Shown one piece after another: positions 40,994-50,126 of a DNA stretch of 64,000 nt (position 1 is its first letter; each line of letters starts with the position of its first letter). A program made the translations under genes and the position numbers. Below the pieces are notes generated by a model. The model was given only the letters and a program-made list of their open reading frames with translations. It ran no database searches and was not told the origin of the DNA. Location of the stretch: the NCBI GenBank assembly GCA_041652815.1, contig JBAZGN010000002.1:366261-430260 (forward strand). The letters are read 5' to 3'. This DNA is from Candidatus Omnitrophota bacterium. GTDB lineage: Bacteria; Omnitrophota; Gorgyraeia; Duberdicusellales; 4484-171.

Positions 40994-41100
40994 TGAATAG
41001 ATGGCAGATGACAGTTTGGCAGATGGCAGATAAAATCTATCTGCATAACTGCTATCTGCCATCTGCTATCCGCTTGAGTTTTTAACCATATGAGGTGATG

Positions 41101-41616
41101 TGTATGATAAGAAAAATTTCCCTTATTTTAACATTTTCGTTTTTACTCTTAGGCCTTTTGAAAGTTAATGGAGAAGGAGGAATATCTATGAAGCTAACCA
41201 GCCCGGATTTTAAAAATAATGAATATCTGCCGAAAAAATTTACCTGTGACGGTAAGGCTATAAACCCCAGCCTTAATATCGAAAGTATTCCTGATAACGC
41301 AAAGAGCCTTGCGTTGATTGTTGACGATCCTGACGCACCAGCCGGAACATTCATCCATTGGATAGTTTTTGATATTCCGGTTACAAATAAAATAGCAGAA
41401 AACACTGCCCCCGGTAAGCAAGGCATTACTAGTTCGCGCACTAAAGAGTATGTCAGCCCCTGCCCGCCTTCCGGCACCCACCGTTATTTCTTCAAAATAT
41501 ATGCTTTGGATACTATGCTGAATTTAAAAGAAGGCATTACCAAGCAAGAGCTTGAGGCGGCGATGAAGGGGCATATCGTGGCGCAAGCGGAGATGATAGG
41601 GTTGTATAAAAGATAG
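41101..41616 (+). CDS. YbhB/YbcL-family PEBP (Raf-kinase-inhibitor-like) protein
   Basis: DDPDAP.GTF.HW motif and signal peptide. Confidence 0.8.
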   Translation, partial: CMIRKISLILTFSFLLLGLLKVNGEGGISMKLTSPDFKNNEYLPKKFTCDGKAINPSLNIESIPDNAKSLALIVDDPDAPAGTFIHWIVFDIPVTNKIAENTAPGKQGITSSRTKEYVSPCPPSGTHRYFFKIYALDTMLNLKEGITKQELEAAMKGHIVAQAEMIGLYKR

Positions 41617-41764
41617 GTTACGAAGGTTACGGATGTTACGAGGGTTACGAAAGTTACCCTTAAACCGCGTGTTTTATTGTAACCTCCGTAACTTAATTCT
41701 TCCGCCTCCGGCGGAAGAATTAACGTAACCAGACTGCCGTAGGCAGGCGCGTAACCTTCGTAAC
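41617..41764. repeat. Hairpin element built from gttacgaa/ttcgtaac words
   Basis: Related to 18748-18848. Confidence 0.8.
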
Positions 41765-41766
41765 AA

Positions 41767-41800
41767 AAAAAAGAGGAGCCAAAAAAGCTCCTCTTTTTTA
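41767..41800. terminator. Bidirectional terminator hairpin
   Basis: aaaaaagaggagccaaaaaagctcctctttttt. Confidence 0.7.
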
Positions 41801-41907
41801 TTAAACAACAGGGAGGCGAATCCCTTCACTTTTATTTTTGCGCAGAATAGAATTAATGCAAGAGAAAAAGCGTATTTTTTGGAAAGCGTTTACAGTATTT
41901 TTCTATC

Positions 41908-42096
41908 TTGAATAGATTATCCAGAGACAATATCAAAACAGACGAGGATTTTATGACTAACGCTAAAGGCGTATTCGCCGCCGGAGATATGCATAAAGGC
42001 CAATCGCTAATTGTTTGGGCGATTGCAGAGGGAAGACAAGCGGCGTATAATGTTGATAGCTACTTAATGGGAAAGAGTAGTTTGCCTGCGATTTAG
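41908..42096 (+). pseudogene. 3' fragment of a gltD-type (glutamate synthase small subunit/FAD oxidoreductase) gene, last ~55 codons only
   Basis: VFAAGDMHKGQSLIVWAIAEGRQAA..D.YLMG is the conserved GltD C-terminus with no upstream body. Confidence 0.7.
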
Positions 42097-42156
42097 TCGA
42101 TAGTCTAACCTAAAGCCTGTTAACTTAATAACCAAAAAACCCACTATCGTTTTTCA

Positions 42157-42185
42157 TTGACAACTATTTCATATCGTAATATAGT
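42157..42185 (+). promoter_or_regulatory. Sigma70-like promoter for the retron (TTGACA, 17 nt, TATAGT)
   Basis: Consensus hexamers read directly from the sequence. Confidence 0.5.
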
Positions 42186-42247
42186 TAGGCAATAAACGAT
42201 TTGGAGTGGTGAACAAATCTATTAGATAATTTTAGATTAAAAATATA

Positions 42248-42398
42248 GGCATCTGCAGAAAGGTATTTAATGTGTCGTTGATCCAGCGACAGTTAACGCA
42301 AAGTTTCGCTTTAGGCCATGTTTACTGCAATGATTTTGAGTTAATGATAAACTGATGATCTGAGTTTTCGGCAAAAGGTAGAATACTCTGCAGATGCC
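42248..42398 (+). ncRNA. Candidate retron msr-msd ncRNA flanked by inverted repeats a1 (ggcatctgcag) and a2 (ctgcagatgcc); a2 overlaps the RT start
   Basis: 11-bp perfect a1/a2 inverted repeat at 42248-42258 and 42388-42398. Internal stem-loops; immediately 5' of a retron-type RT. Confidence 0.6.
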
Positions 42399-43905
42399 AA
42401 TTAATATCGACCTATCATTAAATAGAACGGAAGAAGAGCTAAGGGAATCATTTTTTTTACTGAAAACTTGCGATGATCTAGCATTACTTTTAGAAATACC
42501 TGCCTCAAAATTAACATATTATCTTTACGGCTTGCCTGAAGACAAAAAATACTATAATTTTACAATTCCGAAAAAATCTGGAGAGCAAAGAGTTATTTGT
42601 GCTCCGATAAATGGATTAAAAATTATTCAGCAGAAAATAAGCCAAGTTCTGTTTTGTATTTATAGACCAAAATCATCTGTGAATGGTTTCGTTTCAAGCA
42701 GGAATATTGTTACCAATGCAAAAGTACATTGCAATAAAAAGTTTGTTCTAAATATTGATTTAGAAAACTTTTTTCCATCGATACATTTTGGCCGGATACA
42801 AGGAATGTTTATGGCTTGGCCTTACAACTGCAATCATGAAGTAGCTAAAACATTAGCGCAAATCTGTTGTTGTAACAAAAAACTACCTCAGGGGGCACCG
42901 ACCTCGCCCATTATTTCTAATATGATTTGTAGTAAGATGGATTCAGAACTTCAGGGGTTGGCTAATAATTTCCGGTGTAGGTATACACGATACTCAGATG
43001 ACCTTACTTTTTCCACTTCTTCAGCTAAATTCCCAATAGAATTAGCAAAATATACGTTATTGTCGGGCAACAAAACACTAGTTGTGGGGGGCCATTTAAA
43101 AGAAATTATCGAAAAAAATAATGGGTTTCGAATTAATTACCGTAAAATAAGATTGCAAGAATTCAATCACAGGCAATCTGTAACAGGCATTATTACGAAT
43201 AAATTCCCCAATGTAAAAAGAAAATATGTCAGGCAAATAAGAGCAATGTTGCATGCTTGGGAAAAATTTGGACTAAAAGATGCAGAGCGTGAGTTTCGTC
43301 AAAAATTTGCTAAATGCCGCTGTCCCGCAAAGCAGTTACCATCTTTTCTTGAAGTGCTAAAAGGTAAAATAGGATTTTTAGGCATGGTAAGAGGTAAAGA
43401 TGATCCAATTTATTATTTTTTCAATTATAAATATAAAAATCTTTTGCGCCCCACATATTTAGATAAAAAAGGAGAAATAATGCAAAATAGATACGACGCT
43501 TTCATTAGTTATGCTAGTGAAGACAAAAAAAATTTTGTAATAAATTTAGCTAAAGAACTCATTAGAGAAGGTTTTGACATTTGGTTTGATGAAACTGCGA
43601 TAAAAGTTGGGGATAGTATCAGACGAAAGATAGATGAAGGTCTGACAAGATCAAGGTTCGCTATTGTTATATTTTCGGAAGCTTTTTTCAAAAAGAATTG
43701 GCCACAACATGAATTGTCTGGCTTAGTATCTCTAGAAATGAATGATGGCAGAAAACGTATACTGCCTATTTGGTACAAGATCGATAAGGAATATATAATA
43801 TCAATAAGCCCTCCATTGGCCGATATCCATGCATTAACCTTTCCACAGCAGACAATCGGGCAGATGGTGGATGAATTATCTAAAAAATTAAAAGACAAAA
43901 GCTAA
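42394..43905 (+). CDS. Retron-type reverse transcriptase fused to a C-terminal TIR domain
   Basis: Retron RT hallmarks: Y.F.IPKKSGEQRVI.AP, NAKVH (NAxxH), FFPSI, LPQGAPTSP, YTRYSDDLTFS (YxDD), SVTGIITN (VTG). C-terminus (aa ~370-503) is TIR-like: YDAFISYASEDK...IWFDE...GDSI...SRFAIVIFSE.F..K.W...EL. Confidence 0.85.
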   Translation: MPINIDLSLNRTEEELRESFFLLKTCDDLALLLEIPASKLTYYLYGLPEDKKYYNFTIPKKSGEQRVICAPINGLKIIQQKISQVLFCIYRPKSSVNGFVSSRNIVTNAKVHCNKKFVLNIDLENFFPSIHFGRIQGMFMAWPYNCNHEVAKTLAQICCCNKKLPQGAPTSPIISNMICSKMDSELQGLANNFRCRYTRYSDDLTFSTSSAKFPIELAKYTLLSGNKTLVVGGHLKEIIEKNNGFRINYRKIRLQEFNHRQSVTGIITNKFPNVKRKYVRQIRAMLHAWEKFGLKDAEREFRQKFAKCRCPAKQLPSFLEVLKGKIGFLGMVRGKDDPIYYFFNYKYKNLLRPTYLDKKGEIMQNRYDAFISYASEDKKNFVINLAKELIREGFDIWFDETAIKVGDSIRRKIDEGLTRSRFAIVIFSEAFFKKNWPQHELSGLVSLEMNDGRKRILPIWYKIDKEYIISISPPLADIHALTFPQQTIGQMVDELSKKLKDKS

Positions 43906-44978
43906 TGAATAGTACATTATTAGATTTTAGTGAAGCATTAAAGCAAGCTGTAAATATTGGTGGAAAGAAACAGCTGTTTTTGGGCAACGGATTTAGCATA
44001 GCTTGTTATCCAGGCTTTGAATACGGCACATTATATGAACAAGCTAAAAATAGCGGGCTCTCTAAACATTTAGATGAGCTTTTAAAAAGATATGGTAACA
44101 ATTTTGAAGATGTATTGAAATACCTTGATGAAGGAATGTTTTTGGCGGAGCATTACTATTTAAAAAAAAGTAAAAAAACTAATAGAGACATGGCTCAAGA
44201 TTACAAGGAACTTAAAGAGGCGTTAATAACGACAATAAGTGATAATCACCCTGATTATCCTAGCAGGATATCTAAAAATAAGTTTGAAAGTTGTATAAAA
44301 TTTTTAAGAAATTTTGATGCGGCTTTTACTGTGAATTATGATTTGCTTTTATATTGGGCTTCTTTGCATATTGACGAAAGTAAGGGCGAAGAGTTTCCAT
44401 TCTCTGATGGCTTCGGAAGAGAAGATGATGCTGCGAATCCCGATTGTTCTTTTTCCTATTCGAGCATGAGCTCGAAGCCATATTTATTTTTTCTACACGG
44501 CGCCTTGCATCTTTATACAAAAGACGGACATGTTTGGAAGCGTGTTTGGAATACTACAGGCATCCCAATCATTAAATGCGTTAGAGAAGCTTTTAGCAAA
44601 AAGAGTTACCCATTAGTGGTGACTGAAGGCAAATCTCTTGATAAACTTAAGAAGATTGAAAGTAGTAGCTATTTATCTCAAGCATATAGAAAATTCAAAA
44701 ATATCCAGGGGCATCTTTTTATTTTTGGACATTCGCTTAGTGAACAAGATAATCATATACTTAATGCAATAATTTGCTCAGAAAAATTTAAACTTACGCA
44801 TCTTTGGATAGGAATACATGGAGATTCAAATTCTGCTCATAACAAAAATATAATTGCGAAAGCATCTTTCTTAAGAATGAAAAGAGAAGAGCTCATTCCA
44901 AAAAAACTTAAATCTAAAGGCGAAGGTGAATTAAATATTGGATTTTTCGATAGTGCCTCAGCGCATATTTGGGATTAA
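43905..44978 (+). CDS. SIR2-family (SIR2_2/DHS-like NAD-binding) protein, probable effector
   Basis: LFLGNGFS (GAGxS-like), TVNYDLLL (TTNYDxLLE-like), LHGALH (KLHG-like) and IFGHSLSEQD (GYSl.D) motifs. 1-nt start/stop overlap with the RT-TIR gene. Confidence 0.7.
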   Translation: MNSTLLDFSEALKQAVNIGGKKQLFLGNGFSIACYPGFEYGTLYEQAKNSGLSKHLDELLKRYGNNFEDVLKYLDEGMFLAEHYYLKKSKKTNRDMAQDYKELKEALITTISDNHPDYPSRISKNKFESCIKFLRNFDAAFTVNYDLLLYWASLHIDESKGEEFPFSDGFGREDDAANPDCSFSYSSMSSKPYLFFLHGALHLYTKDGHVWKRVWNTTGIPIIKCVREAFSKKSYPLVVTEGKSLDKLKKIESSSYLSQAYRKFKNIQGHLFIFGHSLSEQDNHILNAIICSEKFKLTHLWIGIHGDSNSAHNKNIIAKASFLRMKREELIPKKLKSKGEGELNIGFFDSASAHIWD

Positions 44979-45199
44979 TCTAAAAAGGTAATTTCAGGGA
45001 CACAATACTTAATTATTTGACCGCACCATTTTTCCACAGTAAAATACCCGCAAGTTCCGGGGCGTAGGGAAACATACAATTTGGAGTTAACATCAAAGCG
45101 TCGGGAAACCGACGCTTTTTAATTAAACCAAAATTAATTATTGTATTCCTGTAATACCGAAATGGGTACAATAGAAGTAATTTTATAAAGAATAAATCA

Positions 45200-46531
45200 A
45201 TGGAACATCAAAGCGCATTAAGAAAGTTTTTAAAAACAATCCTTATCCCACAGCAAAAGGACAGCAAAAAGTCTTTCCTGTCTGGTGGTTTTATGCAAAG
45301 GCGGATTGATGAAAAATTACTGACGCCAGAGCTAAAAAAGTCAGGAAAGATTTTTTTTACTCTTGAAGGTGATGAGTTCAAGGGTTTTGAGAAAATTCAA
45401 CGTAATTTAAGACAAGATATTTCTACCGAATATTTGAAAGATAGAGAATTAGGCGATGCGTTATGGTATCTACTTTGCGATGTTTATTTAAACAAAGAAG
45501 TATATAGAAATTCAGAAAGCCTGAAGAGGCGAATAGAAAAATTTATTCAGCAAATTTGTAAACCGCTAAAAGACTACGAAGTTATATTCGGAGTATCGAA
45601 CCTTTCGATTAAAAAATATCCACTGCAAATATGGGATGTGGCTCTAAACAAGTTGACTAAAGAAGATTTGGAAAGAATGGAACTTAAAATCGGAGGAAAG
45701 TTAAAGGAGTTACTTTTTAAAAAGTTTATTAAGAACGCAGTAGTTATTATTGCTATGCAGGGCAATAATAGTGGTTTTGTTGTTGAAAGAGCTAGAGAAA
45801 AGGCTGAGTTTGCATTAAAGGTATTACAAGTGTATTTTAATGAATTAATTGAAATTCATGACGAAAATCTGCTTTTTGATGTTTCTGACTTCGCTCTTAT
45901 TAGGGGTAAAGAAATAAATAAATGGGCTTGGAGTTGGAAAAGAAAACGATCACCATTTGGTATTAGCATCGGAGATTCTTTATTGGCTTCTATCACGAAA
46001 GCTAATGATCATTTTAAGGTAATTAGTTATCTTAATCCTAATTTTCAATCTAGGGTGCAAAGGGCAATCTATTGGTTGGGTTCTGCCATCGAAGAAGAAG
46101 CTTTTGACCATAAAATGATTCATTTATGTACAGCGCTAGAAAGTTTATTAACCAGTCGGAGTGACAAGAGGAAGGGGGAGGTAATTGCCTATCGTATGGT
46201 AATTCTGAATCATCTGACAGAAGGTAATTTTCCTGATCCTTTTCGTTTGATGTGGTTTTATGAGTTACGTTCCAGAATTGTACATGGATCTGCCATTGGA
46301 CAAACCACTAAATCAGACTATCTTAATTTACAAGATATTACCACAAGGACCTTATTTAGTCTTATTACCCAAATAAAACAGCTTAATGCTAAAGACTATT
46401 TTGACCTTATATCTCAATTAGAAAATGAAGTAAATTTAAAACTAGTTAAATCTTATTTCGAAGGATTTAAGGGAGAGTGGCCACAGTCGATACTACAAAT
46501 TTTAAATGAAAAATTAGAAAAGTTTAAATAA
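45200..46531 (+). CDS. Hypothetical protein with C-terminal HEPN-like R-x4-H motif
   Basis: ELRSRIVHGS in a helical C-terminal region. No confident family. Confidence 0.35.
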   Translation: MEHQSALRKFLKTILIPQQKDSKKSFLSGGFMQRRIDEKLLTPELKKSGKIFFTLEGDEFKGFEKIQRNLRQDISTEYLKDRELGDALWYLLCDVYLNKEVYRNSESLKRRIEKFIQQICKPLKDYEVIFGVSNLSIKKYPLQIWDVALNKLTKEDLERMELKIGGKLKELLFKKFIKNAVVIIAMQGNNSGFVVERAREKAEFALKVLQVYFNELIEIHDENLLFDVSDFALIRGKEINKWAWSWKRKRSPFGISIGDSLLASITKANDHFKVISYLNPNFQSRVQRAIYWLGSAIEEEAFDHKMIHLCTALESLLTSRSDKRKGEVIAYRMVILNHLTEGNFPDPFRLMWFYELRSRIVHGSAIGQTTKSDYLNLQDITTRTLFSLITQIKQLNAKDYFDLISQLENEVNLKLVKSYFEGFKGEWPQSILQILNEKLEKFK

Positions 46532-46607
46532 CCAGTGATAATGGGGTCAGACCTCAAGATTAGAAACTAATCGGGTCAGGCCTCACCCTTAGCAGGGAGA
46601 GACCCTT

Positions 46608-46760
46608 CGACTCGCTTCGCTCGCTCAGGGTTAATTCGCACTATCATTTTTCCTGCGCCACTATTGGCTTGGAAAAATGATGTGCTCATTAGATTTCACA
46701 ACCGCCGGTTTTTAGTTAACCTAAATCCTACCGCGTAGGTGGGCTTTAGGTTGATATTAC
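46608..46760. repeat. ~150-bp cassette-junction module (cgctcagggttaattcg...ccattattggcttggaaaaatg...ttaacctaaatccNaccgcgtaggtgg hairpin)
   Basis: Near-identical copy at 48972-49140; partial copies at 47200-47230 and 53045-53085. Confidence 0.8.
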
Positions 46761-46766
46761 TGATTA

Positions 46767-47222
46767 TTGAAGATGAGCAAAGATATGATTGAACAAAGAA
46801 GAATAGTGTTTCCCGTCAAAGGCAACGACGCCAAATGTTTGGTTCCTTTTGTCCAATCTCTTGTCCAAAAAATTTATACACTCATTTCGCAGGAATATTT
46901 AAACAAATATAAAATTCAGTTAAAAGGGGATAATGATCCTAAAATTGTGGCATCAGATATTTTTATACAATTCGATAAGAAAATTTCTATTAGAATTAAT
47001 TTTTTCGCGCGGGAAAAAGACATTAACACGTTTATAGCCGGCGTTGTTATTGAGAAAAGTTTATTGGGATTTTTTTCACGAGTTGCAACTGATGACGCGC
47101 AAAGATTTTCGGAAATTATTTACAATAAAATTGTCAATATAATAGAAGCCGAAACCGGTTTACGTGGCTGGACGCATGAAGAGGCAGGGCAAAGATTAAA
47201 AAACCTAAATCCCACCGCGTAG
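46767..47222 (+). CDS. Hypothetical protein
   Basis: ORF between junction modules. Its last codons lie in the cctaaatcccaccgcgtagg hairpin. Confidence 0.4.
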   Translation: MKMSKDMIEQRRIVFPVKGNDAKCLVPFVQSLVQKIYTLISQEYLNKYKIQLKGDNDPKIVASDIFIQFDKKISIRINFFAREKDINTFIAGVVIEKSLLGFFSRVATDDAQRFSEIIYNKIVNIIEAETGLRGWTHEEAGQRLKNLNPTA

Positions 47223-47272
47223 GTAGGGAAAAATGTTTTTCTTGTCATTATATACAGTATTGGTAAAATAAA

Positions 47273-48130
47273 TTGATGCGATTTTATTTTTTCGCAATAC
47301 TTTTATTTTCCGGTTGCGCAGCTACAACGCCTCAAGCTACTTCGAATGATAGCGCAAATACTAATGTTGATGTGTTGCGTTTCGAACAAGCCAAAGCTTT
47401 ATCTGCTTCTGATATTCCTGATATCAATATTTCCCGCCTTTCTAAAGGAAGCAATGTAAAAATAAAACACATACAGGATGGTTTAGGCAGAACTTATTTT
47501 ACGGTAAAAACAGTGAAGGATGTAAAAGCCGCAGATAATGGCAAGATTTATGTTATTGATTCTGTAACGGAAGGAAGAACTTATACATTTTCAGAGGATT
47601 CAGCATCGTTACGCAAGGTAGTTTCGCCGTATGAAAATATACAACCGCTGGCAGATTTTAAAGACCCGTCAATGTCAGGCATGCCAGCAACTTTTATAAA
47701 TGCTCTTGGAGCCGGCGGCATCGGAATTGCCTTAATCCCGGTTACCCGCTCACAGGAGAGAGAAAGGAATAAAGAAGCAGGAGACCATGCAAGAGGAATG
47801 CGGGTAGAAAGAAAAATCACAGATTTTAAATTTGTATCAGATGAGGTTTTAAAGATTGCGGATAAGGATATTTTATGTAAGGTCTATCAAATTCATAGCC
47901 TTACCCGGCAGACAATGCCTGCTACTAAAACAATACCTTCCACGTTGCTCATAATTAATACTTCTGAGCGGATATGGATTTCCGAAGACGTTCCTTTTGG
48001 CATAGCCAAAAGAGAAAGCACCCAAACATTACATATGTCTCTGGCAGGCGGCGGCCGTTCGCGCAGGGATATTATACCTTCAGCGCAAACAACCCGCGAA
48101 ACTAACGAAGTTGTGGAATTCAGTTATTAA
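47273..48130 (+). CDS. Hypothetical lipoprotein
   Basis: Signal peptide with LFSGC lipobox. Confidence 0.45.
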   Translation: MMRFYFFAILLFSGCAATTPQATSNDSANTNVDVLRFEQAKALSASDIPDINISRLSKGSNVKIKHIQDGLGRTYFTVKTVKDVKAADNGKIYVIDSVTEGRTYTFSEDSASLRKVVSPYENIQPLADFKDPSMSGMPATFINALGAGGIGIALIPVTRSQERERNKEAGDHARGMRVERKITDFKFVSDEVLKIADKDILCKVYQIHSLTRQTMPATKTIPSTLLIINTSERIWISEDVPFGIAKRESTQTLHMSLAGGGRSRRDIIPSAQTTRETNEVVEFSY

Positions 48131-48416
48131 AAGTTCAATAACTCCGATGGCACAATGGAATTCCGGGGGCACAATACTTAATCATTTGACCACACTTTTT
48201 TCCGGCAGTGAAGCTTTCAAGCGAAACCCTGCCTCGAACCAGAATGAATTCGGTTCAGGGCAGCCCTAAATCGACCTTCGGTCTGGTTTGGCGGCTGAAC
48301 CGTACAGAACCTATACTGGTTCTGGACTGGTTCAGGGGTAAAATACCAGCAAGTTCACGGGTGTTAGTTTTTTATTCAATAATCAAAAGTTAACATTAGC
48401 CATATAATAAAAAAAT

Positions 48417-48878
48417 ATGAATACAAAAGTTTTCAAAATAATAGTCCTGAATCTAGTTGGTGTTATTATCGTTTATCTTCTTTTAATGGCCGGTTGTAGG
48501 GCTTTAATTATGAGAAGCTTCCAGCCCGATGCAAAAGCTATGTATAGGCATTATTTTTCAACCCCGATAGAAAAAGTAAAAGGGCTGCGTAGCGGCGGAA
48601 TGGCTTGGCTGGATAATCCGGTTTGCATAAAGTTTCGGAGCAAAGAAACAATAATTTTAAAAGACCAGAATTTATATTCTCCTGCTGATTCATCAGTGCC
48701 TCGCAGGTTTTTTTTGAGGGAATACCCTAATGATAAAATCATCTTAAATGATGTGGAAAACCTGGTATGTATTCGCTATGACAAGAAAGTAAAGGCCAGC
48801 GATAACAGGCAATACTCTTTATTGCATTGGCTGTTATATAATAAAAAGACAGGAAGCTATTATTTTCTTATTGAATAA
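48417..48878 (+). CDS. Hypothetical membrane-anchored protein
   Basis: N-terminal TM helix; ORF only. Confidence 0.4.
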   Translation: MNTKVFKIIVLNLVGVIIVYLLLMAGCRALIMRSFQPDAKAMYRHYFSTPIEKVKGLRSGGMAWLDNPVCIKFRSKETIILKDQNLYSPADSSVPRRFFLREYPNDKIILNDVENLVCIRYDKKVKASDNRQYSLLHWLLYNKKTGSYYFLIE

Positions 48879-48971
48879 CACTATCAATAAAGATTTGATA
48901 AATTTGGTTCCATCTTGGCCACTCCATCCCGTTCGGCTTCCTTCGGCTTGATTCGGTAAGGCTCACCACAA

Positions 48972-49140
48972 GTCGCTCAGGGTTAATTCGTGCTAACATT
49001 TTTCTTGCCCGCTTCGCCAAGCGAAGCGAGGCGAGCGCCATTATTGGCTTGAAAAATGTTGCACTCATTAATTTCCCGCAGTAAAATACCCACAACTTTC
49101 AAATTAACCTAAATCCCACCGCGTAGGTGGAATTTAAGGG
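48972..49140. repeat. Cassette-junction module, second copy
   Basis: See 46608-46760. Confidence 0.8.
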
Positions 49141-49208
49141 AAGATGACAGATAAAATATGATTTTTGCATTTGGCATGAAAAATAGCTTCTAAAAATAGG
49201 AGCCAAAA

Positions 49209-50126
49209 ATGGACTATTTCGAAGTGCCTCGCCCGCCAAAAGAAGGATTTTGTTCTGATAAAAACTGCCCCTGCCATGATACAGTAATTCTTCCCGGAGA
49301 AGGCTATTTGTATATCAGCCAGAAGCTGATTGATTTTCGCCGAGATTGTTTTACTTATGCCCAGCTGCAACTTAAATTAAAACAGATGGCCGAGTCAGAC
49401 CCGCTTAATAAGCTCGGCGCCGGCGGATTTGTGCGATTCTTGCCCCAGGGGACAACCAGCCCGATAATGATGTGTAAGCAAGCGGCAATGTTAAGGAGTC
49501 TTGACTTGGAAGTAGCCAGTGCCGATGCCAAATATTGGTGGAAAACCGGATTGGTGCCGTTCAGGGTAACGCCCTTGGTAGGAGGCGAGTTGAAAAATTC
49601 CATCTATGTTGAGCCTTCTGGTGCCGTGAGAGAAGAAACTAAAGTAAATCCATCGGCCATTAAAGGAAAGATATATCGCAATAGAAAATATGCATTTTCT
49701 TTGAATCTATCCGATGGCTGGATGGCAGAAAGAAAACTCCTGGATTTCGTATGCAATCCCAAAGAGGCAACCTTTAAATACAAAAAAGAAAATTTATCAT
49801 TATCTTTACATGTTTGCGTCACGCCTGTAGATAAAAAGACAATTTTTAACAAAGAGCATGAAGAGCACTCATTATTAAAAACTTTAGAAAAAACGGTTTC
49901 GCAGATGGAGCGAAAATCTAATCCTTTTTTATTGATAGATAAGACAATTGATGGTGAAAAAAATACTGTATGGGGAGAGTTCCACTCCATCTCCATTGAT
50001 AATAGTATTGAATTATTCGGAATCATCCATGCCCTGCATAATGGTTTATATTACATTATAAAATATTTTGGTGACTTGGCATTAGAGAATGAAGTCAAAA
50101 AAATATTATCTACTTTTCATTTTTGA
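49209..50126 (+). CDS. Hypothetical protein
   Basis: ORF only, 305 aa. Confidence 0.4.
   Translation: MDYFEVPRPPKEGFCSDKNCPCHDTVILPGEGYLYISQKLIDFRRDCFTYAQLQLKLKQMAESDPLNKLGAGGFVRFLPQGTTSPIMMCKQAAMLRSLDLEVASADAKYWWKTGLVPFRVTPLVGGELKNSIYVEPSGAVREETKVNPSAIKGKIYRNRKYAFSLNLSDGWMAERKLLDFVCNPKEATFKYKKENLSLSLHVCVTPVDKKTIFNKEHEEHSLLKTLEKTVSQMERKSNPFLLIDKTIDGEKNTVWGEFHSISIDNSIELFGIIHALHNGLYYIIKYFGDLALENEVKKILSTFHF

What the first reader, a model, noticed from the sequence alone, without database searches (positions are those of the whole stretch)
42157..44978. Retron whose RT is C-terminally fused to a TIR domain and translationally coupled to a SIR2-family gene: a retron/Thoeris-like hybrid
Seen in sequence: a sigma70-like promoter and a ~150-nt region bounded by an 11-bp perfect inverted repeat whose second copy overlaps the RT start codon, as in retron msr-msd loci. 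The ORF carries retron-specific RT motifs (NAxxH, VTG, YxDD), and its last ~130 aa form a TIR-like domain. The next gene overlaps the RT stop by 1 nt and carries SIR2_2 motifs. Established knowledge: TIR-associated retrons exist (Retron-TIR), and TIR plus SIR2 is the signal-producer/NADase-effector pair of Thoeris. Inference: I do not recall a described retron with RT-TIR on one polypeptide plus a separate SIR2 effector, so this may be an uncharacterised retron type in which msDNA sensing, TIR signalling or NAD cleavage, and SIR2 NAD depletion are combined.
Basis: partly seen in the sequence, partly recalled or inferred. Interest (0 to 1): 0.88.

Follow-up and report, generated by a model that had tools for sequence, protein, structure and literature searches.

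The report
Known RT-TIR retron beside SIR2-like gene
This is a divergent but ordinary member of an already catalogued anti-phage retron type (type XII, reverse transcriptase fused to a TIR domain); the SIR2-like gene that overlaps its stop codon appears to be a separate defence-candidate gene sharing the operon, not a conserved third component.

Summary
A promoter-like site precedes a structured non-coding region of about 155 nt closed by a perfect 12-bp inverted repeat that overlaps the RT start codon. Then come a 503-aa RT-TIR fusion, a 357-aa gene overlapping its stop by one base (TAATG), and a strong terminator.

The RT-TIR fusion with its ncRNA is retron type XII of Mestre et al. 2020 ("Retron-TIR"), which PADLOC treats as a single-gene system. 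It matches the PADLOC RT-TIR_XII model full length at E = 3e-148. The ncRNA shows covariation, and a covariance model built from it finds untrained retron loci.

The second gene is Pfam DUF4917 / PADLOC PDC-S21. Its predicted structure has a SIR2 fold and the N and H catalytic motifs, but it has no SLOG or other sensor domain, so it is not ThsA-like.

The pairing is not conserved. None of 13 distinct other RT-TIR loci carries DUF4917; the six closest relatives carry different downstream genes, four of them defence-associated. None of 112 other DUF4917 loci has an upstream RT-TIR.

The retron, DUF4917 and a new HEPN-like gene lie in a 4.5-kb low-GC island in an Omnitrophota MAG. Functional coupling in this lineage is not excluded, but I put it at about 10%.

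The parts
42157..42185 (+). Sigma-70-like promoter candidate (TTGACA-17-TATAGT)
   Evidence: 11 of 12 matches, the best in the region. Not conserved in relatives, and promoter-like sites are not enriched over shuffles.
42245..42401 (+). Retron ncRNA (msr-msd), closed by the a1/a2 stem
   Evidence: MFE -50.7 kcal/mol, z = -4.8. In a 7-sequence alignment, 11 of 22 pairs carry compensatory changes and 0 of 500 shuffles reach the observed score. Covariance model R1 scores 152 bits here and finds full-length matches just upstream of the RT in 9 untrained retron loci.
42248..42259 (+). a1 arm of the inverted repeat (GGCATCTGCAGA)
   Evidence: The same arm with compensatory changes occurs in L081, L175, L176, L084 and L087.
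42273..42291 (+). Conserved msr hairpin (TGTCGT-TGATCCA-GCGACA)
   Evidence: 6 pairs, 100% of cells paired in 7 sequences, 2 pairs with compensatory change.
42292..42345 (+). Long imperfect hairpin, the candidate msd stem; its sequence varies among relatives
   Evidence: MFE structure and the variable central block of alignment A3. The assignment as msd is an inference.
42387..42398 (+). a2 arm of the inverted repeat (TCTGCAGATGCC), overlapping the RT start codon
42394..43905 (+). RT-TIR fusion gene (503 aa), retron type XII
   Evidence: PADLOC RT-TIR_XII E = 3.4e-148, full length. Pfam RVT_1 plus TIR_2. NCBIfam Retron_TIR_antiphage 475.9 bits, below the 600-bit equivalog cut-off. 100% identical to an NCBI protein from a Candidatus Omnitrophica MAG.
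42565..43155 (+). RT domain (residues 58-254), including NAKVH at 42715-42729 and YSDD at 42991-43002. The VTG motif at 43180-43188 lies just 3' of this span.
   Evidence: invariant N108, A109, H112, Y200, D202, D203, T264, G265; V263 nearly invariant.
43492..43845 (+). TIR domain (residues about 367-484); putative catalytic Glu E440 at 43711-43713
   Evidence: TIR_2 E = 2.4e-21 and TIR E = 6e-15. E440 is invariant in 23 homologues. Its catalytic role is inferred from the canonical TIR W-x-x-x-E motif.
43905..44978 (+). DUF4917 / PDC-S21 gene (357 aa), a single-domain SIR2-fold protein, co-transcribed but not a conserved retron component
   Evidence: Pfam DUF4917 E = 2.3e-58. PADLOC PDC-S21 E = 2e-96. 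AF2 pLDDT 87.6. Best Foldseek match is the SIR2 of SIR2-HerA, E = 3e-10, followed by ThsA and SPARSA SIR2. Invariant GNGFS 27-31, Y145/D146 (N144 nearly invariant) and H198/G199/H202.
45095..45125 (+). Intrinsic terminator (AAAGCGTCGG-GAAA-CCGACGCTTT followed by a T run) closing the retron-DUF4917 transcription unit
   Evidence: Read in the sequence. Fold -17.6 kcal/mol, z = -5.8.
45200..46531 (+). Neighbouring gene in the same low-GC island: an uncharacterised 443-aa protein with a C-terminal HEPN-like domain. It is a separate unit, not part of the retron.

Best explanation
The locus is a type XII retron, a self-contained anti-phage system made of an msr-msd ncRNA and one RT-TIR polypeptide. 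It sits at the 5' end of a small, horizontally acquired defence island in an Omnitrophota genome. The gene that overlaps its stop codon is an independent single-gene defence candidate (DUF4917 / PADLOC PDC-S21, a minimal SIR2-fold putative NADase). It has come to share the retron's promoter and terminator in this lineage only.

Proposed mechanism of the retron; every step is inferred from related systems and none was shown here. The RT reverse-transcribes the msd part of the ncRNA into msDNA, primed from a branching G next to the a1/a2 stem. The msDNA-RT-TIR nucleoprotein keeps the TIR domains inactive. A phage factor that degrades, modifies or binds the msDNA releases them. The TIR domains then associate and hydrolyse NAD+ through Glu440, causing abortive infection. 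This is analogous to the RT-Toprim retron Eco2, whose models are the third-best PADLOC match to this RT and which Mestre et al. link to RT clades 1 and 8; there the msDNA cages the effector until a phage nuclease degrades it.

DUF4917 most likely senses and acts on its own, consuming NAD+ through N144 and H198. It adds a second layer of defence, not a step downstream of the TIR domain.
For: Retron identity:
- PADLOC RT-TIR_XII at 3.4e-148 over the full length, ahead of RT-Protease_XI and RT-Toprim_I-C.
- Pfam RVT_1 plus TIR_2.
- NCBIfam Retron_TIR_antiphage aligned over positions 2-458 of 464.
- Retron motifs NAxxH, YxDD and VTG fall on invariant or nearly invariant columns.
- 12-bp a1/a2 stem with a2 over the ATG.
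- ncRNA covariation: 11 of 22 pairs compensatory, 0 of 500 shuffles, and slid controls 30-55% paired against 91%.
- Covariance model R1 finds full-length hits immediately upstream of the RT in 9 untrained loci, including the Herpetosiphon and Nitrospirales RT-TIRs.
- Retron-TIR from Shigella dysenteriae, transformed into E. coli, is used as an anti-T5 defence system (bioRxiv 10.1101/2022.06.09.495361).

Independence of DUF4917:
- The six closest RT-TIR relatives (67-49% identity) have different downstream neighbours: DUF4268/PDC-S11, Hypoth_Ymh, a HEPN_Swt1-like protein, HEPN_AbiV, or small hypothetical ORFs.
- The E. coli plasmid and Herpetosiphon RT-TIRs have convergent genes downstream.
- In the tblastn tally, 0 of 13 distinct non-self RT-TIR loci carry DUF4917.
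- The four closest DUF4917 relatives (78-63% identity) follow a type I R-M system, a hypothetical gene, Dcm/Vsr, or an OLD-like ATPase.
- 0 of 112 non-self DUF4917 loci have an upstream RT-TIR; 81 of them have at least 1.6 kb of upstream sequence.
- Homology among retron relatives begins at a1. Since each relative has a different gene after the RT stop, the conserved cassette is a1 to the RT-TIR stop.
- DUF4917 also occurs on 25 IMG/VR viral contigs.

Island: GC is 33.5% over 42000-46500, against 40-45% in the flanks.

Mechanistic analogy: Eco2 (PMC12916289).
Against: - The two genes are as tightly packed as possible: a TAATG overlap, no terminator between them, and one strong terminator after DUF4917. 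This is what a functional operon looks like.
- Both gene products are predicted to act on NAD+, so cooperation is chemically plausible.
- Four of the six closest relatives also have a co-directional defence-associated gene directly behind the RT-TIR. This could mean the clade uses swappable partners, not merely that it sits in defence islands.
- Only 13 distinct RT-TIR loci could be inspected.
- No experiment was possible: msDNA, NADase activity and defence all remain unshown for this locus.
Confidence: 0.8

Rival explanations
1. One reading: a true tripartite retron in which DUF4917 is a dedicated second effector. In one version the TIR domain, once released from msDNA control, makes an NAD-derived signal that switches on the SIR2-like protein, as in Thoeris. 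In the other, RT-TIR and DUF4917 form a complex that depletes NAD+ together.
For: One-base overlap and a shared promoter and terminator. TIR plus SIR2 is the Thoeris pairing (established knowledge). DUF4917 keeps the SIR2 catalytic N and H. The arrangement is stable across three independent samples. One of 112 DUF4917 loci (L102) has a TIR_2 protein two genes downstream.
Against: There is no co-occurrence outside this lineage, in either direction. DUF4917 is a single domain with no SLOG, Macro, STING or other ligand sensor. No ThsA or ThsB model is among its PADLOC hits, and SIR2 scores only E = 0.0025. PADLOC lists type XII as a 'single gene' system, and Mestre et al. describe no associated protein cluster for it. 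The closest relatives of each gene sit in other contexts, one RT-TIR (P0006) and two DUF4917 genes (P0122, P0124) within the same metagenome sample ERZ27247363.
Confidence: 0.1
2. DUF4917 is not a defence gene at all. It would be a sirtuin-type protein deacylase with a regulatory or host-interaction role, like C. jejuni SliP, that merely happens to lie downstream of the retron.
For: The only experimentally studied DUF4917 protein in the searched literature, SliP, is reported as a canonical NAD-dependent deacetylase (PMC10421069).
Against: The best structural matches are defence-type SIR2 NADases (SIR2-HerA, ThsA, SPARSA) at E = 1e-10 to 4e-4, while classical sirtuins score about 1e-2 or worse. 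It matches a PADLOC phage-defence-candidate model at 2e-96. All four closest relatives sit among R-M, OLD-like, HD/nuclease and Vsr genes. The family occurs on viral or prophage contigs.
Confidence: 0.05
3. Type XII retrons of this Omnitrophota-centred clade have a general 'variable partner slot' directly behind the RT-TIR. Whatever gene occupies it (PDC-S11, Ymh, a HEPN protein or DUF4917) would be placed under retron transcriptional or translational control as an exchangeable effector.
For: Five of the seven loci in this group, counting the window, have a different co-directional defence-associated gene from -1 to +184 nt after the RT-TIR stop.
Against: Two close relatives (L087, L178) have only small hypothetical ORFs there. 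Distant type XII loci have convergent genes. The occupants are themselves known stand-alone Abi genes or defence candidates, so the pattern equals what any defence island gives. The gaps of +69 to +184 nt leave room for separate promoters.
Confidence: 0.05

Closest known systems
Retron type XII (Mestre et al. 2020), equivalent to Retron-TIR of Gao et al. 2020 (Shigella dysenteriae NCTC2966)
   Same: RT of the same PADLOC model group (XII, XI and I-C are the best hits) fused at its C-terminus to a TIR_2 domain. A structured ncRNA with an a1/a2 stem lies directly upstream. It is a single-protein system. The RT motifs and the TIR Glu are intact.
   Different: It is divergent: 38.7% identity to the E. 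coli plasmid RT-TIR over two tblastn pieces, and below the NCBIfam equivalog cut-off (475.9 against 600 bits). The host is an uncultured Omnitrophota bacterium. A SIR2-fold gene overlaps the stop codon, which is not seen at any other type XII locus examined.
Retron Eco2 (type I-C1, RT-Toprim fusion)
   Same: RT-Toprim_I-C models are the third-best PADLOC match to this RT. It is a minimal one-protein retron with the effector fused to the RT C-terminus. The covariance model built from this ncRNA also finds hits upstream of related RT genes that lack a TIR domain. It is used here as the mechanistic template: msDNA cages the effector and a phage nuclease releases it (PMC12916289).
   Different: Its effector is a Toprim nuclease that cuts tRNA, not a TIR NADase. 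The trimeric caged architecture has not been shown for type XII.
Thoeris (ThsB TIR plus ThsA SIR2-SLOG)
   Same: A TIR domain and a SIR2-fold protein are encoded side by side, and both domains use NAD+.
   Different: Here the TIR is fused to a retron RT, not a free ThsB. The SIR2 protein lacks the SLOG (or Macro/TM) signal-sensing domain that defines ThsA. The pair does not co-occur in other genomes. There are no ThsA or ThsB HMM hits.
SIR2 of the SIR2-HerA (Nezha) system, and other defence SIR2 NADases (ThsA, SPARSA, DSR)
   Same: It is the best structural match to the DUF4917 model (E = 3e-10, TM 0.55). The Rossmann GxGxS-like motif, NYD and HG catalytic motifs are shared.
   Different: No HerA, Argonaute or large sensor domain is encoded nearby. 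DUF4917 is a bare 357-aa domain, and the related proteins inspected stand alone. Sequence similarity is marginal (Pfam SIR2_2 E = 0.01; PDB profile E = 0.36).
PADLOC PDC-S21 (single-gene phage-defence candidate), Pfam DUF4917, including C. jejuni SliP
   Same: Full-length HMM membership (2e-96 and 2e-58).
   Different: No paper in the searched library mentions PDC-S21, so it is a candidate with no validation known to me. SliP is described as a secreted deacetylase, a different biological role.

Membership tests
Retron (general) | RT of the retron clade with the NAxxH, YxDD and VTG motifs | tested here: met
   All of the top PADLOC hits are retron RT models, the best being RT-TIR_XII at 3.4e-148. 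NAKVH 108-112, YSDD 200-203 and VTG 263-265 fall on invariant or nearly invariant columns.
Retron (general) | Contiguous ncRNA (msr-msd) closed by an a1/a2 inverted repeat next to the RT gene | tested here: met
   Perfect 12-bp inverted repeat. z = -4.8. Covariation in 11 of 22 pairs with 0 of 500 shuffles. The covariance model finds untrained loci. Rfam has no matching family.
Retron (general) | Production of branched msDNA (2'-5' link to a priming G) | not testable with these tools
   Needs msDNA extraction. The branching G could not be assigned from sequence.
Retron type XII (Mestre 2020) / Retron-TIR | RT fused at its C-terminus to a TIR_2 domain, with no separate associated-protein cluster | tested here: met
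   Pfam TIR_2 at 370-484, E = 2.4e-21. Definition taken from PMC7736814 Table 1. PADLOC labels the model 'single gene'. The downstream gene is not conserved.
Retron type XII (Mestre 2020) / Retron-TIR | RT falls in RT clade 8 (with types XI and I-C) | tested here: inconclusive
   The ranking of HMM scores (XII, then XI, then I-C) is consistent with this. No phylogeny was built.
NCBIfam NF042941 Retron_TIR_antiphage (equivalog) | Score at or above the curated cut-off of 600 bits | tested here: not met
   475.9 bits with a full-length alignment. It is a homologue with the same architecture, but not an equivalog of the enterobacterial protein.
Thoeris | ThsA-type effector: SIR2 (or TM/Macro) joined to a SLOG-type signal-binding domain | tested here: not met
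   The AF2 model is a single SIR2-like domain of 357 aa. There are no ThsA hits in PADLOC.
Thoeris | Stand-alone ThsB TIR gene conserved next to the SIR2 gene | tested here: not met
   The TIR is fused to the RT. The only NCBIfam Thoeris hit is 32.9 bits against a 220-bit cut-off. No TIR-DUF4917 co-occurrence beyond one locus of 112.
SIR2 superfamily (fold level) for the second gene | SIR2/Rossmann fold with the catalytic Asn (NxD) and His (HG) | tested here: met
   Foldseek matches SIR2-HerA at E = 3e-10, ThsA at 1e-5 and sirtuins at about 1e-2. Y145, D146, H198 and G199 are invariant and N144 is nearly invariant. NYDLL and LHG align with the SIR2-like chain 8w9l.
Pfam SIR2_2 (PF13289) | Score at or above the gathering threshold (24.5 bits) | tested here: not met
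   16.4 bits, E = 0.01.
Pfam DUF4917 / PADLOC PDC-S21 | Full-length HMM match above threshold | tested here: met
   DUF4917 198.5 bits against a 28-bit cut-off, profile positions 1-311 of 311. PDC-S21 321 bits.
Pfam DUF4917 / PADLOC PDC-S21 | Demonstrated anti-phage activity | not testable with these tools
   No paper in the searched library mentions PDC-S21.

The most novel reading that the evidence does not exclude
In this Omnitrophota lineage a stand-alone SIR2-fold NADase (DUF4917) has been captured into the transcription and translation unit of a type XII retron, and the two now work together. Either both consume NAD+ once the msDNA checkpoint is tripped, or the SIR2 protein responds to a TIR product. 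That would make this an incipient retron subtype with two NAD+-targeting effectors, and the first retron linked to a SIR2 protein.
Probability: 0.1. Interest if true: 0.6.

Novelty: new member of a known kind. Interest (0 to 1): 0.27.

Why it matters
As it stands, the finding adds a divergent, intact type XII retron from an uncultured phylum (Omnitrophota). It also gives a usable ncRNA alignment and covariance model for these RT-TIR-like retrons. The alignment shows that the conserved cassette runs from a1 to the RT-TIR stop, while both flanks are free to vary.

The practical lesson is about method. A one-base overlap and a shared terminator are not enough to call a multi-gene defence system. 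The neighbourhood test in both directions showed the pair to be lineage-specific.

If the minority reading were true, it would be the first retron that uses a SIR2 protein and a natural fusion of retron and Thoeris-like logic. That would be of moderate interest to the phage-defence field.

The two neighbours are reasonable candidates for experimental testing as single-gene defences. One is DUF4917 / PDC-S21, a minimal SIR2 with no visible sensor. The other is the orphan HEPN-like gene.

Tried and rejected
- Rfam scan of 41000-46000 at E up to 10: only chance-level hits, and no retron msr family matched.
- PDB sequence-profile search with the DUF4917 alignment: only a marginal SIR2-like hit at E = 0.36. 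The fold had to be established by structure prediction instead.
- The genome-contig scan with the RT-TIR alignment returned mostly RT-only retrons of other types. Only 6 of 80 loci were RT-TIR.
- An RVT_1 gene 860 nt downstream of the closest DUF4917 relative (L168) was considered as a possible recurring RT link. It was rejected because it matches generic, UG17 and CRISPR-associated RT models, not retron models.
- Weak RT hits near DUF4917 in L098, L110 and L120 are short, on the opposite strand, or only 23-31% identical. None is an RT-TIR.
- A shared longest-contig length of 1832 nt for P0010 and P0184 was considered as a possible second co-occurrence. It was rejected because such a contig cannot hold both genes.
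- The afdb50 fold library was unavailable.
- An internal promoter-like site at 43770-43799, upstream of DUF4917, exists. It carries no weight, because such sites are as frequent in shuffled sequence.
- Literature searches for PDC-S21 and for retron plus SIR2 found no described retron-SIR2 system.
- The branching G and the exact msr/msd boundary could not be assigned from sequence.


Full report
**1. What is in the sequence**

The stretch 42157-45125 reads as one compact transcription unit on the + strand.
- A promoter-like site TTGACA-17-TATAGT lies at 42157-42185. It has 11 of 12 matches, the best in 41600-46800.
- A perfect 12-bp inverted repeat follows: GGCATCTGCAGA at 42248-42259 and TCTGCAGATGCC at 42387-42398. 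Its second arm covers the ATG at 42394.
- A 503-aa ORF runs from 42394 to 43905.
- A 357-aa ORF runs from 43905 to 44978. Its ATG shares one base with the TAA stop of the first ORF (TAATG).
- A strong hairpin followed by a T run lies at 45095-45125 (AAAGCGTCGG-GAAA-CCGACGCTTT; -17.6 kcal/mol; z = -5.8).

One caveat applies to the promoter. Promoter-like sites as a class are no more frequent here than in shuffled sequence, and the sequence upstream of a1 is not conserved in relatives.

**2. The first gene and the RNA are a type XII retron**

The protein evidence:
- Pfam finds RVT_1 (residues 58-254) and TIR_2 (370-484, E = 2.4e-21).
- PADLOC's best models are RT-TIR_XII (E = 3.4e-148, aligned 17-501 of 503), followed by RT-Protease_XI and RT-Toprim_I-C.
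- NCBIfam's 'TIR domain-containing anti-phage reverse transcriptase' (NF042941) aligns end to end. It scores 475.9 bits, under the 600-bit equivalog cut-off. This is a homologue with the same architecture, but a divergent one.
- In an alignment of 23 RT-TIR proteins, N108, A109, H112, Y200, D202, D203, T264, G265 and the TIR Glu E440 are invariant, and V263 is nearly invariant.

The RNA evidence:
- The RNA between the repeats folds well beyond shuffles (-50.7 kcal/mol, z = -4.8).
- The six closest relatives all have an a1/a2 stem about 120-135 nt apart that ends at or just before the RT start, and its sequence co-varies. Examples are GGCATCTGCAGG/CCTGCAGATGCC, AAGCATCCGCAGG/CCTGCGGATGCTT and TAACGGCATCTATAGA/TCTATAGGTGCCGTTA.
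- On the 7-sequence alignment, 11 of 22 consensus pairs show compensatory changes and 91% of cells are paired. No shuffle out of 500 reaches the observed covariation score, and sliding the partner by one to three columns drops pairing to 30-55%.
- A covariance model built from these seven sequences gives a single hit in the window (152 bits). It also gives full-length hits immediately upstream of the RT gene in nine loci that were not used to build it. These include the Herpetosiphon and Nitrospirales RT-TIRs and several related RT genes whose tblastn match stops short of a TIR domain.

Mestre et al. [quoted passage not shown] The Shigella dysenteriae Retron-TIR, transformed into E. coli, is used as an anti-T5 defence system (bioRxiv 10.1101/2022.06.09.495361). 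The RT-TIR architecture is therefore already catalogued.

**3. The second gene has a SIR2 fold but is not ThsA-like**

- Pfam places it in DUF4917 (E = 2.3e-58, full length). SIR2_2 scores only 16.4 bits, below its threshold, and AbiH scores E = 1e-3.
- PADLOC places it in PDC-S21, a single-gene phage-defence candidate (E = 2e-96).
- The alignment of 28 homologues has invariant GNGFS (27-31), Y145/D146 with N144 nearly invariant, and H198/G199/H202. NYDLL and LHG align with the equivalent motifs of a solved SIR2-like protein (8w9l).
- An AlphaFold2 model (pLDDT 87.6, pTM 0.86) matches the SIR2 subunit of the SIR2-HerA/Nezha system best (E = 3e-10, TM 0.55). ThsA (1e-5) and SPARSA SIR2 (4e-4) follow, and classical sirtuins come only at about 1e-2.
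- The model is a single domain. There is no SLOG, Macro or other ligand-sensing module, and that module is what makes ThsA respond to the TIR signal in Thoeris.
- The only experimentally studied DUF4917 protein I found is C. jejuni SliP, reported as a sirtuin-like deacetylase (PMC10421069).

**4. Is the pair a system? Neighbourhood test in both directions**

Starting from the RT-TIR side, the closest relatives have these downstream neighbours:

| Relative | Identity | Downstream of RT-TIR |
|---|---|---|
| P0002 | 67% | DUF4268 / PDC-S11 at +14 nt, then AIPR |
| P0003 | 65% | Hypoth_Ymh at +69 nt (Shedu SduA lies upstream) |
| P0004 | 64% | HEPN_Swt1-like / PDC-M34B-like protein at +184 nt |
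| P0005 | 57% | HEPN_AbiV at +83 nt (an integrase lies upstream) |
| P0006 | 49% | small hypothetical ORFs, then housekeeping genes |
| P0008 | 49% | hypothetical ORFs (a type III R-M system lies upstream) |

- Six more distant RT-TIR loci from species-representative genomes have no DUF4917 within 6 kb.
- The E. coli plasmid and Herpetosiphon RT-TIRs have convergent genes downstream.

Starting from the DUF4917 side, the closest relatives have these upstream neighbours:

| Relative | Identity | Upstream of DUF4917 |
|---|---|---|
| P0122 | 78% | type I R-M system |
| P0124 | 74% | 211-aa hypothetical protein |
| P0127 | 65% | Dcm/Vsr and a 55-aa ORF |
| P0129 | 63% | OLD-like ATPase |

- An RT 860 nt downstream of P0122 is not a retron RT.
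- Across everything fetched, 0 of 13 distinct non-self RT-TIR loci carry DUF4917 in the tblastn tally.
- 0 of 112 non-self DUF4917 loci have an upstream RT-TIR, and 81 of them have at least 1.6 kb of upstream sequence.
- The exact window arrangement recurs only as identical copies of the same locus in three samples.
- Within one of those samples (ERZ27247363), other contigs carry an RT-TIR without DUF4917 and DUF4917 genes without a retron RT.
- Homology among retron relatives starts at a1, and each relative has a different gene after the RT stop. The conserved cassette is therefore a1 to the RT-TIR stop.

**5. Context**

- The window is from a Candidatus Omnitrophica MAG.
- GC falls from 40-45% to 33.5% over about 42000-46500. 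This block covers the retron, DUF4917 and a third gene at 45200-46531.
- On the left edge, a 62-aa ORF at 41908-42096 matches only the last 39 positions of Pyr_redox_2, so it is a remnant of a truncated gene.
- Together these features look like a small acquired defence island holding three independent modules.

**6. How it most likely works**

The following are shown:
- the gene and RNA anatomy;
- intact catalytic motifs;
- conservation and covariation of the ncRNA;
- probable co-transcription of the two genes;
- absence of a conserved partnership.

The following are inferred. The RT makes msDNA from the msd hairpin region, and the msDNA-RT-TIR complex holds the TIR domains inactive. A phage factor that degrades or alters the msDNA releases them, and NAD+ hydrolysis through E440 aborts the infection. 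The template for this inference is the related RT-Toprim retron Eco2, in which msDNA cages the nuclease until phage DenB degrades it (PMC12916289). DUF4917 is most likely a separate NAD+-consuming defence candidate with an unknown trigger.

I give this reading about 0.8. A non-defence sirtuin role for DUF4917 and a general 'variable partner slot' each get about 0.05.

**7. Novelty and score**

The RT-TIR retron is a new, divergent member of a known kind. The juxtaposition with a SIR2-fold gene is, on the evidence obtainable here, a lineage-specific operon fusion of two independent defence genes and not a new retron type. Interest is low to moderate (0.27). It rests mainly on the residual possibility of real coupling and on the two untested single-gene candidates next door.

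Noticed in passing
[not shown]
   Followed up: partly
L081 6437-7369; L175 2797-3549; L176 1948-3135; L084 4412-5173; window 43905-44978: Four of the six closest RT-TIR relatives, like the window, have a different co-directional defence-associated gene from -1 to +184 nt after the RT-TIR stop: PDC-S11/DUF4268, Hypoth_Ymh, a HEPN_Swt1-like protein, HEPN_AbiV, and here DUF4917. This is either a recombination hotspot behind the retron cassette or ordinary defence-island packing.
   Followed up: partly
window 42252-42259 and 42387-42394; L081 4770-4777; L176 117-124; L084 2659-2666: The inner 8 nt of the a1/a2 stem are themselves palindromic (TCTGCAGA, CCTGCAGG, TCTATAGA) in four of the seven aligned retron ncRNAs. 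Each arm could therefore also pair with a copy of itself, either between two RNAs or in an alternative fold. The significance is unknown.
   Followed up: no
window 41908-42096 (+): A 62-aa ORF matches only the last 39 positions of Pyr_redox_2. It is the C-terminal remnant of a truncated oxidoreductase, GltD-like by my reading, lying directly at the left edge of the low-GC island. This is consistent with an insertion or deletion scar.
   Followed up: partly
window about 42000-46500: GC content is uniformly 33.5% across the retron, DUF4917 and the HEPN-like gene, against 40-45% in the flanking hydrogenase, ExbBD and PEBP genes and the downstream genes. This indicates a small horizontally acquired island.
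   Followed up: partly
L102 862-3420: One metagenomic DUF4917 gene is followed by a C92-family peptidase-like ORF and then a 307-aa TIR_2 protein, with a PLD-like ORF upstream. It is the only DUF4917 locus of 112 with a TIR gene nearby.
   Followed up: partly
L187-L211 (IMG/VR contigs): DUF4917 homologues occur on 25 viral or prophage contigs, so the family is also carried by mobile elements.
   Followed up: no
window 46767-50126 (+): A run of co-directional ORFs (151, 285, 153 and 305 aa) lies downstream of the island. None has a Pfam hit, and the first two, the only ones tested, have no PADLOC hit. The function is unknown.
   Followed up: no
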